Shown in pieces: positions 9,645 to 13,720 of a stretch of DNA of 64,000 bases. Within the stretch, counting starts at the first letter, position 1. Each line of letters begins with the position of its first letter. Below the pieces are notes generated by a model, which did no database searches, was not told where the DNA came from, and saw nothing but the letters and a program-made list of their open reading frames with translations. The position numbers were made by a program, and so were the translations under genes. Origin of the DNA: Escherichia coli O127:H6 str. E2348/69 (GTDB lineage Bacteria; Pseudomonadota; Gammaproteobacteria; Enterobacterales; Enterobacteriaceae); assembly GCF_000026545.1 (NCBI RefSeq), contig NC_011601.1; one strand, 5' to 3'.

Positions 9645-10574
9645 ATGGAACGACTAAAACGCATGTCGGTGTTTGCCAAAGTAGTTGAATTTGGCTCTTT
9701 TACCGCCGCCGCCAGACAGCTACAGATGAGCGTTTCGTCCATCAGTCAGACGGTGTCAAAACTGGAAGATGAGTTACAGGTAAAGCTGTTAAACCGTAGT
9801 ACACGCAGCATTGGCCTGACTGAAGCCGGCAGAATTTACTACCAGGGCTGCCGTCGGATGCTCCATGAAGTGCAGGATGTTCATGAGCAACTGTATGCCT
9901 TCAATAACACCCCCATCGGGACGCTGCGCATTGGCTGTTCTTCAACTATGGCACAAAATGTTCTCGCCGGGCTGACGGCAAAAATGCTGAAAGAATACCC
10001 AGGTTTGAGCGTCAATCTGGTTACCGGAATTCCTGCCCCCGACCTGATTGCCGACGGTCTGGATGTGGTGATCCGCGTCGGCGCGTTGCAAGATTCCAGC
10101 CTGTTTTCCCGCCGTCTGGGCGCGATGCCAATGGTGGTGTGCGCCGCAAAAAGCTATCTCACACAATACGGCATACCAGAAAAACCCGCCGATTTAAGTA
10201 GTCATTCATGGCTTGAATACAGCGTGCGACCCGACAATGAATTTGAACTGATCGCACCGGAAGGGATCTCGACTCGCCTGATCCCGCAAGGGAGATTTGT
10301 GACTAATGATCCGATGACGCTGGTGCGCTGGCTGACGGCGGGTGCCGGGATCGCCTACGTGCCGCTGATGTGGGTGATCAACGAGATCAATCGCGGGGAA
10401 CTGGAGATCCTGCTGCCACGTTACCAGTCAGACCCACGCCCGGTTTATGCGTTATATACCGAAAAAGATAAGCTGCCGCTGAAGGTACAAGTCGTGATCA
10501 ACTCGCTAACGGATTATTTTGTTGAGGTCGGTAAATTGTTTCAGGAGATGCACGGGCGCGGGAAAGAGAAGTAA
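9645..10574 (+). CDS. aaeR: LysR-family transcriptional activator AaeR, 309 aa
   Basis: ORF track; MERLKRMSVFAKVVEFGSFTAAARQLQMSVSSISQTVSKLE... helix-turn-helix N-terminus; divergent from aaeXAB. Confidence 0.95.
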   Translation: MERLKRMSVFAKVVEFGSFTAAARQLQMSVSSISQTVSKLEDELQVKLLNRSTRSIGLTEAGRIYYQGCRRMLHEVQDVHEQLYAFNNTPIGTLRIGCSSTMAQNVLAGLTAKMLKEYPGLSVNLVTGIPAPDLIADGLDVVIRVGALQDSSLFSRRLGAMPMVVCAAKSYLTQYGIPEKPADLSSHSWLEYSVRPDNEFELIAPEGISTRLIPQGRFVTNDPMTLVRWLTAGAGIAYVPLMWVINEINRGELEILLPRYQSDPRPVYALYTEKDKLPLKVQVVINSLTDYFVEVGKLFQEMHGRGKEK

Positions 10575-10637
10575 TTAATATTGTACTGTTACGTTGTACA
10601 AACCTGTGCCAACGGGTTTCCCTCACCCTAACCCCAG

Positions 10638-10656
10638 CTGTCTCTTATACACAAAT
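10638..10656 (+). repeat. Left terminal inverted repeat of the IS (outside-end-like)
   Basis: CTGTCTCTTATACACAAAT; first 9 bp identical to the inverted right end. Confidence 0.8.
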
Positions 10657-10802
10657 CCCCACCCGGGGATTTGTGATGTCTGTCAGTCTGCTTTAGGGGG
10701 ACTCTTTCCATCCGGTAGTTTCCTTCCTCCCCGGCAGCGATTTTTTGAACTTTTTCCTCACCCGTTGATCTTCTCTTATATTTCATTTTCTTCGGGTCTG
10801 TT

Positions 10803-12176
10803 ATGGTACTTTCTGATTGTTATTCATGGGCTAACGAGCAGTTTGGACATGCCCGTCTCGGTGATCCGCGTCGTACACGACGCCTTGTGTCACTGGCCTC
10901 TTCTCTCGCTCAGCATGCAGGTCTTTCTATTGTGAAATCATCCCAGTCCACTGCTCAGGTTGAAGGTGCGTACCGCCTGATACGTAACCCGTCTGTGTCC
11001 CCGCAAGCCATTGCCGAAGCCGGATTTACCGCCACTGTAAGGGCATGTGAGGCTCATCCGCTGCTCCTCGCGCTGGAAGACACCACCACCATTAACTTCA
11101 GTCACAGTACGGCATCTGATGACCTGGGGAATACCACCACTAACCCGAAGACGCGCGGGCTGCTGGCTCACTCTGTCCTGATGTACGCCCCCGACAGCGC
11201 CCTGCCAGTCGGTCTTATCGAACAGCAGCGCTGGAGTCGTGCCACGGACACCTACGGTGTTAAGCACCAGCGAAAAGAACGTCCCTATGAAGAAAAAGAA
11301 AGTTACCGCTGGCAGCAGGCTTCGGAGCGCATGGCCGAACGGCTGGGGGAGATACAGAAACGGGTAATCACTGTCTGTGACCGGGAAGCGGATATCTGGC
11401 ATTACCTGCATTATAAAGTCAGCCACGGGCAGCGCTTCGTGGTGCGTGCAGCACAGAATCGCCGGCTGGAAGAAGCACCCGGCAAGCTCTTCGAACTGCC
11501 GGAAGTCCTGGCAACCGCGGGAAGCCACACGCTGAATGTGATGCAAAAAGGCGGGCGGGCAGCCCGCCAGGCCCGGATGTTCATCAGTTACAGCGAAGTC
11601 AGCATAAAAAATCCCGACAACAGCGGCCAGGCGCTCCCGCTCACGTATGTCTGTTGCCGGGAGCAGGCAGAGGACGGCGCCTGCTGGCATCTGCTGACGT
11701 CAGAAAAAGTGGCGAGTGCCGCCGATGCGCGACGTATCGTCAGCCATTACGAGCGACGCTGGCTGATAGAGGAATACCACAAGGCGTGGAAAAGTGGTGG
11801 TACATGTGTGGAATCGCTGCGAATGCAGACCCGGGATAACCTCGAGCGCATGGTGGTTATCAAGGCGTTTATCGCGGTGCGGGTGCTGGGCCTGCGGCAG
11901 GGCGGTATCAGTGAAGAAACACAAAATGACAGCTGTGAGAAAATACTGACGCCGACAGAGTGGAAACTGCTGTGGGTTAAGCTGGAAGGAAAACCGCTTC
12001 CGTCACAGATGCCGACACTGAAATGGGCCTGTCTGAAACTGGCGAAACTGGGGCGATGGCATGACAGCAAACGCACCGGTCGCCCCGGTTGGGTAGTCAT
12101 GTGGGATGGCTGGTTCAGACTTCAGGATATGGTTGAGGGTTACCTGGTGATGAAGTCTCTTGATCAGGAGATCTGA
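10803..12176 (+). CDS. IS4-family (Tn5/IS50-type) DDE transposase, 457 aa
   Basis: ORF track; conserved Tn5 Tnp blocks GDPRRTRRLV, EGAYRLIRNP, ALEDTTT, VCDREADI, RFVVR, HYERRWLIEEYHKAWK (YREK), DNLERMV, KWACLKLAKLGRWHDSKRTG; stop codon TGA (12174-12176) lies inside the right inverted repeat as in IS50. Confidence 0.9.
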   Translation: MVLSDCYSWANEQFGHARLGDPRRTRRLVSLASSLAQHAGLSIVKSSQSTAQVEGAYRLIRNPSVSPQAIAEAGFTATVRACEAHPLLLALEDTTTINFSHSTASDDLGNTTTNPKTRGLLAHSVLMYAPDSALPVGLIEQQRWSRATDTYGVKHQRKERPYEEKESYRWQQASERMAERLGEIQKRVITVCDREADIWHYLHYKVSHGQRFVVRAAQNRRLEEAPGKLFELPEVLATAGSHTLNVMQKGGRAARQARMFISYSEVSIKNPDNSGQALPLTYVCCREQAEDGACWHLLTSEKVASAADARRIVSHYERRWLIEEYHKAWKSGGTCVESLRMQTRDNLERMVVIKAFIAVRVLGLRQGGISEETQNDSCEKILTPTEWKLLWVKLEGKPLPSQMPTLKWACLKLAKLGRWHDSKRTGRPGWVVMWDGWFRLQDMVEGYLVMKSLDQEI

Positions 12177-12187
12177 TCAAGAGACAG
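12169..12187 (-). repeat. Right terminal inverted repeat of the IS (inside-end type, contains two GATC Dam sites)
   Basis: Plus strand AGATCTGATCAAGAGACAG is the reverse complement of CTGTCTCTTGATCAGATCT. Confidence 0.85.
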
Positions 12188-12259
12188 AACCCCAGAGGGG
12201 CGAGGGGACCGTTCGTACACGGAGAAGGATTAATTATCCTTCTGAAAATACTGAAATTA

Positions 12260-13720
<1,461 letters not shown>

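What the first reader, a model, noticed from the sequence alone, without database searches (positions are those of the whole stretch)
10630..12195. Flanking direct repeat is 8 bp (AACCCCAG), not the 9 bp expected for IS50-type elements
AACCCCAG occurs immediately outside both inverted repeats (10630-10637 and 12188-12195). The ninth position does not match on either boundary choice (T before the left copy versus A after the right copy). IS50 and Tn5 characteristically generate 9-bp target duplications. This could be a true 8-bp duplication, a 9-bp duplication with one later substitution, or a slightly different terminal base for this element. The repeat does confirm a transposition event rather than a recombinational remnant.
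Basis: seen in the sequence. Interest (0 to 1): 0.35.

Follow-up and report, generated by a model that had tools for sequence, protein, structure and literature searches.

The report
ISEc13 makes an ordinary 8-bp duplication
The 8-bp repeat is a genuine target-site duplication made by the known Tn5-related insertion sequence ISEc13, for which 8 bp is the usual length; the more interesting result is that this element almost always inserts between a CCC-type and a GGG-type arm of small G+C-rich palindromes.

Summary
AACCCCAG lies directly against both ends of a 1550-bp element (window 10638-12187). The element is 100% identical to ISEc13 copies in EPEC strain E2348/69.

The uninterrupted aaeR-tldD site, present in about 5416 of 5426 E. 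coli genomes, carries one copy, T-AACCCCAG-A. So this is a true 8-bp duplication. It is not a decayed 9-bp one and not a coincidence.

The premise that 9 bp is expected holds only for IS50 itself. The IS50 subgroup is published as giving 8-9 bp. Among 27 independent ISEc13 sites I found 18 with 8 bp, 8 with 9 bp and 1 with 7 bp. The finding as written is therefore ordinary.

Beyond the finding, every site obeys a symmetric rule, 5'-CYCN | duplicated bases | NGRG-3'. C at -4 and -2 is invariant in 54 of 54 half-sites, against a chance rate of about 1e-3 per position. The duplication is 9 bp where the arms are spaced 9 apart.

Targets are hairpin-prone: terminators, and in four cases including the window's the BoxC/PIT "triplex" repeat. 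Relatives at 77%, 71% and 52% protein identity (the last from Vibrio, with 9-11 bp duplications in bidirectional terminators) behave alike; ISPlu9 (57%) also gives 8-9 bp but with looser arms.

I found no description of this rule in the held literature.

The parts
10630..10637 (+). Left copy of the 8-bp target-site duplication, AACCCCAG
   Evidence: Single copy in the empty site.
12188..12195 (+). Right copy of the 8-bp target-site duplication, AACCCCAG
10638..12187 (+). ISEc13, an intact 1550-bp insertion sequence (IS4 family, IS50 subgroup)
   Evidence: 100% identical over 1550 bp to copies annotated 'IS4-like element ISEc13 family transposase' in E2348/69. Same termini in more than 30 other copies.
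10638..10656 (+). Left terminal repeat CTGTCTCTTATACACAAAT. It matches the Tn5 outside end at 17 of 19 positions (differs at 4 and 18) and contains TTATACACA.
   Evidence: OE and ME sequences verified in PMC3347997, Table 1.
12169..12187 (-). Right terminal repeat. Its reverse complement is CTGTCTCTTGATCAGATCT, which I know as the IS50 inside end (19/19), with two GATC sites. The transposase stop codon (12174-12176) lies inside it.
   Evidence: single exact match in the window. IE identity is from my own knowledge.
10803..12176 (+). Transposase gene, 457 aa plus stop. Catalytic D93, D193, E323; YREK signature Y316, R319, E323, K330.
   Evidence: Pfam Tnp_DNA_bind and DDE_Tnp_1 above cutoff, Dimer_Tnp_Tn5 just below. 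Full-length match to Tn5 transposase, E 6e-84, 42.2% identity. Annotated CDS WP_000244358.1.
10626..10629 (+). Left target arm CCCT (positions -4 to -1 outside the duplication)
   Evidence: C at -4 and -2 in 54/54 half-sites of 27 ISEc13 sites.
12196..12199 (+). Right target arm AGGG (positions +1 to +4 outside the duplication)
   Evidence: G at +2 and +4 invariant.
10617..10629 (+). C-rich half (TTTCCCTCACCCT) of the split G+C-rich palindrome, a degenerate BoxC/PIT/TMECO repeat
   Evidence: Empty-site sequences. TMECO consensus and Table 1 in PMC4666352. Predicted hairpin -17.3 kcal/mol for the reconstructed site.
12196..12209 (+). G-rich half (AGGGGCGAGGGGAC) of the same split palindrome
10650..10675 (+). 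Perfect 11-bp inverted repeat with a 4-nt loop (CACAAATCCCC ACCC GGGGATTTGTG), just inside the left end of the IS. Function not tested.
   Evidence: inverted repeat I12.
9645..10574 (+). aaeR, whose stop codon lies 63 bp before the IS (context)
   Evidence: Annotation transferred from NZ_OW967795.1 and NZ_CP033092.2. Stop codon read. Start coordinate inferred from the 930-bp gene length.
12260..13705 (-). tldD, convergent with aaeR, whose stop codon lies 73 bp after the IS (context)
   Evidence: Annotation transferred. TTA at 12260-12262 read. Far end inferred from the 1446-bp gene length.

Best explanation
Window 10638-12187 is an intact copy of ISEc13. This is a catalogued insertion sequence of the IS50 subgroup of the IS4 family, and the window comes from the E. 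coli E2348/69 lineage. The element inserted by DDE transposase cut-and-paste between the convergent genes aaeR and tldD. Its two 3'-OH ends attacked the two target strands 8 bp apart, and repair of the gaps duplicated AACCCCAG. Eight bp is this element's usual stagger. It uses 9 bp at about a third of sites. The position and stagger are set by a symmetric target rule: on each strand the attack falls just 3' of 5'-C-Y-C-N. The duplex target therefore reads CYCN | duplicated bases | NGRG, and the duplication length equals the spacing between the two arms. Eight bp is preferred, 9 bp appears when the spacing demands it, and a Vibrio relative uses 9-11 bp. Such sites occur mainly in small G+C-rich palindromes. 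Here the palindrome is a degenerate BoxC/PIT repeat between two gene ends. Shown: the element's identity, the empty site, the 8-bp duplication, and the arm rule. Inferred: that each transposase subunit reads one arm, and the chemistry, by homology to Tn5.
For: Identity: 100% over 1550 bp to ISEc13 copies. Transposase aligns full-length to Tn5 transposase, E 6e-84 and 42% identity, with DDE and YREK residues in place. Empty site: 5416 of 5426 genomes have the two flanks contiguous. The closest, ATCC 11775, reads ...CCCTCACCCT AACCCCAG AGGGGCGAGGGG with one copy. Only 4 genomes carry the insertion. Other copies: 27 full sites with duplications of 8 bp (18), 9 bp (8) and 7 bp (1). Published range for the IS50 subgroup is 8-9 bp. 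Arm rule: C at -4 and -2 in 54/54 half-sites; -3 is a pyrimidine in 53/54; -1 is never A. Per-position chance is about 1e-3, and the motif occurs at 0.42 per kb in the window. Twelve of 14 orphan half-sites also fit at 8 or 9 nt. Spacing sets length: only 1 of 9 non-8-bp sites could satisfy both arms at 8 bp. Sister BoxC targets CCCT[CTCCCCAA]AGGG and CCCT[CTCCCCAAA]AGGG give 8 and 9 bp. Hotspot reuse: the same nucleotide and orientation in the unrelated isolate 538. Two other sites were hit in different lineages with 8 versus 9 bp. Relatives at 77%, 71% and 52% identity follow the same pattern; ISPlu9 (57%) gives 8-9 bp with looser arms.
Against: All sites are survivors in natural genomes, not fresh insertions, so selection shapes the sample. 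Selection may account for the strong excess of hairpin-forming sites over unoccupied motif matches. There are exceptions. L015 has C at +3. L028 shows only 7 bp. Two orphan half-sites need a 10-nt offset. ISPlu9 obeys the rule on both arms at only 2 of 7 sites. In the two same-site 8-versus-9 pairs the difference is a single base at the left junction, which a 1-bp indel or an assembly error could also produce. Runs of C and G let many sites satisfy the rule in more than one register, which weakens the spacing argument (19 of 27 fit at a fixed 8, 19 of 27 at a fixed 9). The ISfinder entry for ISEc13 could not be consulted.
Confidence: 0.9

Rival explanations
1. The element made the canonical 9-bp duplication and one copy later changed, so only 8 bp still match.
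For: IS50/Tn5 itself makes 9-bp duplications (own knowledge; also stated). ISEc13 does make 9 bp at about 30% of sites.
Against: The empty site is T-AACCCCAG-A. A 9-bp event would leave TAACCCCAG on both sides, or AACCCCAGA on both sides, adding one base. The window has no extra base, so a substitution cannot explain it; a precise 1-bp deletion at a junction would be needed. An independent insertion in isolate 538 has the same 8-bp duplication. Eighteen of 27 sites are 8 bp.
Confidence: 0.02
2. The 8-bp match is a coincidence or a pre-existing repeat, or the true end of the element is one base off from where it was drawn.
For: The flanks are repetitive C/G-rich sequence, and AACCCCAG occurs a third time in the window.
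Against: There is a single copy in the uninterrupted site of thousands of genomes. Chance at both junctions is about 1.5e-5. The same termini, C...G, bound more than 30 copies whose adjoining bases vary freely.
Confidence: 0.01
3. The CYCN...NGRG pattern around ISEc13 copies reflects survival rather than transposase preference. On this view insertion is near-random as for Tn5, and only insertions in harmless intergenic hairpins (terminators, REP/BoxC) persist.
For: Occupied sites fold far better than unoccupied sites with the same arm motif: -14.6 versus -7.3 kcal/mol, P 2e-8. Most sites are intergenic, just past stop codons. All the data are from natural genomes.
Against: Selection for 'somewhere in a terminator' cannot fix C at exactly -2 and -4 from both junctions in 54/54 half-sites while -6 to -8 carry no information. 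Insertions inside genes (dgoD, tssH) keep the arms. The rule holds for short-armed sites that are not stable hairpins, such as L021 at -5.8 kcal/mol. The same nucleotide is reused in unrelated lineages.
Confidence: 0.08
4. The transposase recognises a DNA structure, not a duplex sequence: an extruded cruciform, a hairpin on single-stranded DNA at the fork, or the BoxC triplex. The arms would simply be the base of the stem.
For: There is a strong hairpin excess at occupied sites. Duplication length varies from 7 to 11 bp, which is hard to reconcile with a rigid complex on B-DNA. The Vibrio relative sits only in long terminator palindromes. BoxC/TMECO forms stable non-B structures in vitro (PMC4666352).
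Against: Several used sites have only 4-5 bp of symmetry and weak predicted folding (L021, L006, L015). The stem sequence is constrained (C, Y, C), not merely complementary. Complementarity beyond arm position 5 is modest: 0.35 against 0.25 expected.
Confidence: 0.2

Closest known systems
IS50 / Tn5 (IS4 family, IS50 subgroup)
   Same: One ORF for a DDE/YREK transposase with an N-terminal DNA-binding region and a Tn5-type C-terminus: 42% identity over the full length, E 6e-84. The right end is identical to the 19-bp inside end (own knowledge). The left end matches the outside end at 17 of 19 positions. The stop codon lies inside the right end. Size is about 1.5 kb.
   Different: The usual duplication is 8 bp, not 9. 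There are strict symmetric arms outside the duplicated bases, unlike the weak Tn5 preference within its 9 bp (own knowledge of Goryshin 1998; one search says only that IS50 prefers a 9-bp sequence). There is no methionine at the position of the Tn5 inhibitor start; Q52 aligns with residue 56. ISEc13 occurs as a multicopy solo IS, with about 30 copies in E2348/69.
Other IS50-subgroup elements, e.g. ISPlu9 (Photorhabdus) and unnamed relatives in Enterobacterales, Serratia and Vibrio
   Same: Ends of the CTGTCT... type. Duplications are variable: 8-9 bp in ISPlu9, 9 bp in the 77% and 71% relatives, 9-11 bp in the Vibrio element. C-rich and G-rich arms flank the duplication. The published subgroup range is 8-9 bp.
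   Different: ISPlu9 follows the arm rule loosely, with both arms at 2 of 7 sites. The Vibrio element's half-site is AAAA-G-C-C-Y, shifted relative to C-Y-C-N, and its duplications exceed the published 8-9 bp range.
IS4-subgroup elements and ISRm22 (IS4Sa subgroup)
   Same: De Palmenaer et al. 2008 report strongly conserved left and right 'target arms' outside the duplication, and duplications of variable length within one element. ISRm22 sits in REP palindromes (Tobes and Pareja 2006).
   Different: These are different subgroups with 10-13 or 8-10 bp duplications and different ends. That review reports no such specificity for the IS50 subgroup.
IS231A (IS4 family)
   Same: A symmetric G/C-triplet target, which I recall as GGG(N)5CCC. 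Hallet et al. [quoted passage not shown]
   Different: The polarity is opposite (GGG...CCC rather than CCC...GGG). Duplications are 10-12 bp. It belongs to a distant subgroup found in Bacillus.
Palindrome-targeting IS of other families: IS1397/ISKpn1 (IS3 family, own knowledge); ISPpu9/ISPpu10 (IS110 family)
   Same: They insert into intergenic repeated palindromes, a 'safe haven' that spares genes.
   Different: They use unrelated enzymes and mechanisms. IS110 elements use a guide RNA and make no comparable duplication. Their targets are REP units rather than a 4-nt arm pair.

Membership tests
IS4 family, IS50 subgroup (as defined by De Palmenaer et al. 2008) | DDE catalytic triad plus the Y-(2)-R-(3)-E-(6)-K signature | tested here: met
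   D93, D193 and E323 align with Tn5 D97, D188 and E326. Y316, R319, E323 and K330 align with Y319, R322, E326 and K333.
IS4 family, IS50 subgroup (as defined by De Palmenaer et al. 2008) | Single transposase ORF without a frameshift | tested here: met
   One 457-codon ORF at 10803-12176.
IS4 family, IS50 subgroup (as defined by De Palmenaer et al. 2008) | Terminal signature CW------Y---CA-A--W- and size 1350-1550 bp | tested here: met
   Both ends fit the signature at every specified position (left CTGTCTCTTATACACAAATC; right reverse complement CTGTCTCTTGATCAGATCTC). Length is 1550 bp.
IS4 family, IS50 subgroup (as defined by De Palmenaer et al. 2008) | Direct repeats of 8-9 bp | tested here: met
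   8 bp here. Across 27 sites: 18 of 8 bp, 8 of 9 bp, 1 of 7 bp. Table 1 of PMC2266710 gives 8-9 bp.
IS4 family, IS50 subgroup (as defined by De Palmenaer et al. 2008) | Tn5-type domain set: N-terminal DNA binding, DDE core, C-terminal dimerisation | tested here: met
   PF14706 scores 70 bits and PF01609 30.9 bits, both above cutoff. PF02281 scores 24.1 bits, below its 26.7 cutoff, but the alignment to Tn5 transposase runs to residue 469 of 477.
ISEc13 (named IS) | Near-identity to the reference ISEc13 sequence | tested here: inconclusive
   100% identical to copies that NCBI's PGAP labels 'IS4-like element ISEc13 family transposase', and the protein cluster is named 'transposase of ISEc13'. 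The ISfinder reference record itself could not be consulted.
IS50 itself (the IS of Tn5) | Same IS: near-identical DNA and transposase | tested here: not met
   The transposase is only 42.2% identical to Tn5 transposase.
IS50 itself (the IS of Tn5) | 9-bp target duplication | tested here: not met
   8 bp here and at 18 of 27 sites.
Palindrome/REP-targeting insertion sequences (functional class, not a phylogenetic family) | Insertions concentrated at a fixed position of intergenic palindromic repeats or hairpins | tested here: met
   Arm rule in 27 of 27 sites. Mean predicted hairpin energy is -14.6 against -5.6 kcal/mol for random windows. Four of 27 sites are in BoxC/TMECO repeats. The same nucleotide is reused in unrelated strains.
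Palindrome/REP-targeting insertion sequences (functional class, not a phylogenetic family) | The preference is a property of the transposase, not of post-insertion selection | not testable with these tools
   This needs unselected de novo insertions. Only natural survivors were available.

The most novel reading that the evidence does not exclude
ISEc13 and its relatives form a sequence-specific branch of the otherwise near-random Tn5 group. Each strand is attacked just 3' of a 4-nt half-site, 5'-CYCN, and the two half-sites may lie 8 or 9 bp apart (9-11 bp in a Vibrio relative). The target, not the enzyme alone, would then set the length of the duplication. This aims the elements at terminators and at BoxC/PIT 'triplex' repeats, and would make ISEc13 one concrete source of the unexplained instability reported at those repeats. 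The rule itself is well supported here. The uncertain part is whether it is an enzyme property and whether it is really undescribed.
Probability: 0.45. Interest if true: 0.5.

Novelty: already known. Interest (0 to 1): 0.3.

Why it matters
As written, the finding does not matter much. An 8-bp duplication is normal for this catalogued IS and lies within the published range for its subgroup. It does date the insertion as a clean, unrearranged transposition event.

The follow-up may matter more. Tn5 is the standard 'random' transposase for mutagenesis and tagmentation. A 42%-identical natural relative with a strict, simple target rule offers a comparative route to the residues that bind target DNA. 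A duplication length that follows the target also bears on how rigid the strand-transfer complex is. The rule predicts where ISEc13 will land, which is useful for typing EPEC and other lineages. It also links a mobile element to BoxC/PIT repeats, whose instability has had no mechanism.

Tried and rejected
1. An exact 38-nt left-end scan of the species-representative genomes found nothing, so it gave no cross-species copies.
2. The 90% protein cluster held mostly partial sequences and was not useful for finding new sites.
3. The E2348/69 genome paper, Reznikoff 2004 and Goryshin 1998 are not in the held library. The Tn5 target consensus and the IS50 inside-end sequence therefore rest on my own knowledge.
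4. The supplements of the IS4-family review do not mention ISEc13 or ISPlu9.
5. An Rfam scan of the empty site gave only a chance-level hit, so the target is not a known RNA element.
6. Literature searches for terminator-targeting or 8-bp IS50-type elements found no prior description. The library lacks most subscription journals and ISfinder.
7. I considered that the conserved flanks mean the copies all sit in one repeat family. I rejected this because positions -6 to -8 and the duplicated bases carry almost no information, and only 4 of 27 sites are BoxC.
8. I considered a fixed 8-bp or fixed 9-bp stagger. Either keeps both arms in register at only 19 of 27 sites, against 26 of 27 for the observed lengths, and 27 of 27 for the four invariant bases.
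9. No structure prediction was run. It would confirm the fold but would not explain the stagger.
Full report
**1. The observation**

The window reads ...CCCTCACCCT AACCCCAG | CTGTCTCTTATACACAAATCC ... GATCTGATCAAGAGACAG | AACCCCAG AGGGGCGAGGGG... The two 8-mers are at 10630-10637 and 12188-12195. They directly abut a 1550-bp element at 10638-12187. The neighbouring bases are T on the left and A on the right, as reported. A junction-anchored search finds no longer repeat.

**2. What the element is**

- The 1550 bp are 100% identical to copies annotated 'IS4-like element ISEc13 family transposase' in EPEC strain E2348/69, which has about 30 places per chromosome. Full-length copies occur in 873 of 5426 complete E. 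coli genomes.
- A junction-spanning query matches three E2348/69 assemblies at 100%, so the window comes from that lineage.
- The single ORF (10803-12176, 457 aa) hits Pfam Tnp_DNA_bind and DDE_Tnp_1 above cutoff, and Dimer_Tnp_Tn5 just below cutoff.
- The ORF aligns end to end with Tn5 transposase structures (E 6e-84; 42.2% identity). D93, D193 and E323 sit at the catalytic positions, and Y316, R319, E323 and K330 form the YREK signature.
- The right end is, by my own knowledge, the 19-bp IS50 inside end.
- The left end differs from the Tn5 outside end at positions 4 and 18. The OE and ME sequences were checked in PMC3347997.
- Size, end signature and motifs meet the published definition of the IS50 subgroup.

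**3. The empty site**

I joined the two flanks with one copy of the 8-mer. This gave a contiguous match in 5416 of 5426 genomes, in the aaeR-tldD intergenic region.

The ancestral sequence contains both TAACCCCAG and AACCCCAGA, and exactly 8 bp were duplicated. A 9-bp event would have added a base, so a 'later substitution' cannot explain the window. The pre-existing-repeat alternative is excluded.

**4. Other copies**

I collected copies from four sources:
- one genome with ten copies;
- 22 records of diverse E. coli strains and plasmids;
- one further occupied aaeR-tldD copy;
- 17 prophage contigs.

This gave 27 distinct full sites. Duplications are 8 bp at 18 sites, 9 bp at 8 and 7 bp at 1. 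Several copies have unmatched flanks. In one pair, L011 and L012, the flanks are swapped, which is the signature of an inversion between two copies.

The IS4-family review tabulates 8-9 bp for the IS50 subgroup (Table 1, PMC2266710). So the 8-bp repeat is typical of ISEc13 and within the known range. Only IS50 itself is a strict 9-bp element.

**5. What turned up beyond the finding: a target rule**

Counting outward from the junctions, all 27 sites read C-Y-C-N | duplication | N-G-R-G. Treating the two strands equivalently gives 54 half-sites:

| Position | Bases seen |
|---|---|
| -5 | C 36/54 |
| -4 | C 54/54 |
| -3 | C 43, T 10, G 1 |
| -2 | C 54/54 |
| -1 | T 34, C 16, G 4, A 0 |
| -6 to -8, and inside the duplication | almost no information |

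- The chance of the six constrained bases is about 1e-3 per position. The motif occurs 26 times (8-bp spacing) and 32 times (9-bp spacing) in the 62-kb background of the window.
- The stricter CCCB-N8-VGGG occurs only five times in that background, and one of those is the occupied site.
- Twelve of 14 orphan half-sites from recombined or truncated copies also carry the arm at 8 or 9 nt. Two need 10 nt.
- In strand terms, each transposon 3' end joins just 3' of 5'-CYCN on its own strand. That geometry is inferred from standard DDE chemistry.

**6. Duplication length follows arm spacing**

- Only 1 of the 9 sites with a non-8-bp duplication could place both arms in register at 8 bp. By contrast, 11 of the 18 8-bp sites could also have used 9 bp but did not. 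Eight is the default, and nine appears when the spacing requires it.
- Two members of one repeat family make a natural experiment. CCCT[CTCCCCAA]AGGGGCGAGGGG gives 8 bp, and CCCT[CTCCCCAAA]AGGGGCGAGGGG gives 9 bp.
- At two loci (agp-yccJ and near a tRNA-Pro), different lineages carry the IS with 8 versus 9 bp. Both registers obey the rule, and the flanks differ by SNPs on both sides. These are probably independent hits, although a 1-bp junction indel is not excluded.

**7. Hotspots and the nature of the targets**

- The aaeR-tldD insertion occurs in only four genomes: three E2348/69 assemblies and the unrelated isolate 538. In isolate 538 the flank is 96.7% identical, with a 6-bp indel 20 bp from the junction and a different right flank. 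The IS nevertheless sits at the same nucleotide, in the same orientation, with the same 8-bp duplication. That points to recurrent use of one site.
- Near-identical ibs-locus hairpins carry the IS in both orientations, as expected for a symmetric target.
- Reconstructed targets fold much better than controls. Mean energies are -14.6 kcal/mol for occupied sites, -7.3 for unoccupied windows with the same arm motif (P 2e-8), and -5.6 for random windows. Many sites are terminator-like and lie just past stop codons.
- The window's target, and three others, are BoxC/PIT/'TMECO' repeats. On the reverse strand the K-12 allele reads CCCTCGCCC-CTTT-GGGGTGAGGG-TTA-GGGTGAGGG, matching the published type-A consensus. 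The E2348/69-type allele is a 6-bp shorter, degenerate form.
- The paper on those repeats reported unexplained instability at the loci and no transposase remnants nearby.
- The data cannot tell whether the hairpin excess reflects recognition of structure or of extended symmetry, or only the survival of harmless insertions.

**8. Relatives**

| Relative (protein identity) | Element | Sites seen |
|---|---|---|
| 77%, Enterobacterales | 1488 bp | CTCT[9]AGAG and CTCC[9]AGAG |
| 71%, Serratia | 1495 bp | CTCC[9]AGGG |
| 52%, Vibrio | 1505 bp, same first 24 nt as ISEc13 | Nine full sites, all of the form AAAAAGCCY[9-11 bp]RGGCTTTTTT, which are bidirectional-terminator palindromes |
| 57%, ISPlu9 (Photorhabdus) | 1492 bp | 8- or 9-bp duplications; at least one arm at every site, both arms at 2 of 7 |

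The behaviour is therefore a property of a clade. The arms loosen in ISPlu9, and by my own knowledge they are absent in IS50 itself.

**9. Comparison with what is known**

- The element works like IS50/Tn5 and belongs to its subgroup, but it is not IS50: identity is 42%, the duplication is 8 bp, and the target is different.
- Conserved 'target arms' outside a duplication of variable length have been described for IS4- and IS4Sa-subgroup elements, and REP targeting for ISRm22. So the kind of behaviour is known in the family. The review does not report it for the IS50 subgroup.
- 'ISEc13' appears only in passing in eight held papers, and further searches found no description.
- ISfinder and most subscription papers were out of reach, so prior knowledge cannot be excluded.

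**10. Verdict**

- The finding as written is a correct observation of an ordinary feature. It is a true 8-bp duplication by a known IS whose subgroup is documented as giving 8-9 bp. On its own it is of low interest and already known.
- The symmetric CYCN...NGRG rule, the spacing-dependent duplication length, and the BoxC and terminator homing are strongly supported as patterns and may be unreported. They raise the overall interest modestly.
- Whether they are enzyme properties needs unselected insertions.

Noticed in passing
L004 (NZ_OW967795.1, isolate 538) versus window 10600-12230: An unrelated E. coli lineage carries ISEc13 at exactly the same nucleotide, in the same orientation and with the same 8-bp duplication. 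Its flank haplotype differs, with a 6-bp indel 20 bp from the junction. This suggests a recurrent hotspot rather than shared descent.
   Followed up: partly
L011 and L012 (CP148541.1, about 60 kb apart, inverted); also L017, L018, L051: The left flank of L011 matches the right flank of L012 and vice versa, which indicates an inversion by recombination between two ISEc13 copies. Three other copies have unmatched flanks, each still carrying the arm motif.
   Followed up: partly
window 10617-10629 plus 12196-12209; L002, L035, L036, L011/L012: The target is a degenerate BoxC/PIT/'TMECO' intrastrand-triplex repeat. Four of 27 ISEc13 sites lie in such repeats, between the C-stem and the first G-stem. 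The 2015 paper on these repeats reported unexplained local instability and no nearby transposases.
   Followed up: partly
L070-L079 (Vibrio genomes): A 1505-bp relative shares the first 24 nt of the ISEc13 left end and has a 52%-identical transposase. It sits only in bidirectional-terminator palindromes and makes 9-, 10- and 11-bp duplications, which is outside the 8-9 bp published for the subgroup.
   Followed up: partly
L007 vs L023 (agp-yccJ); L016 vs L025 (next to a tRNA-Pro); L063 vs L064-66 (ISPlu9): The same site carries the IS with an 8-bp duplication in one genome and a 9-bp one in another, differing by a single base at one junction. These could be independent hits with different stagger, a 1-bp indel, or an assembly error. 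This is unresolved.
   Followed up: partly
window 10650-10675: A perfect 11-bp inverted repeat with a 4-nt loop lies just inside the left terminal repeat, upstream of the transposase gene. It could block read-through from the genes whose terminators the IS splits. This was not tested.
   Followed up: no
window 11144-11159: A strong match to the target rule, CCCG[AAGACGCG]CGGG, lies inside the ISEc13 transposase gene itself. It is a potential self-target. No nested copy was looked for.
   Followed up: no
window 10638-10656 and 12169-12187: The two ends are different, as in IS50. The left is OE-like with TTATACACA, which I recall as a DnaA-box-like motif. The right is IE-identical with two GATC sites. 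The first 16 nt of the left end equal the engineered 'mosaic end' used in tagmentation.
   Followed up: partly
window 10953-10958 (transposase residues 51-52): The methionine that starts the Tn5 inhibitor protein (residue 56) aligns with Q52 in ISEc13, so the Tn5-type inhibitor start is not conserved at that position.
   Followed up: no
L028 (NZ_CM142663.1): One copy shows only a 7-bp duplication, CAAAAAA, next to an A-run. It may be a real 7-bp event or a homopolymer length error.
   Followed up: no
L033/L034 and L029: There are diverged ISEc13 variants: one 97.5% identical, 1558 bp, with an internal stop and left end ...CACAAGTCCC, which is closer to the Tn5 OE; and one 99.1% identical with altered ends. 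Both keep the arm rule with 9-bp duplications. One duplication has a single mismatch (ATTCTGGTG / ATTCTAGTG).
   Followed up: no
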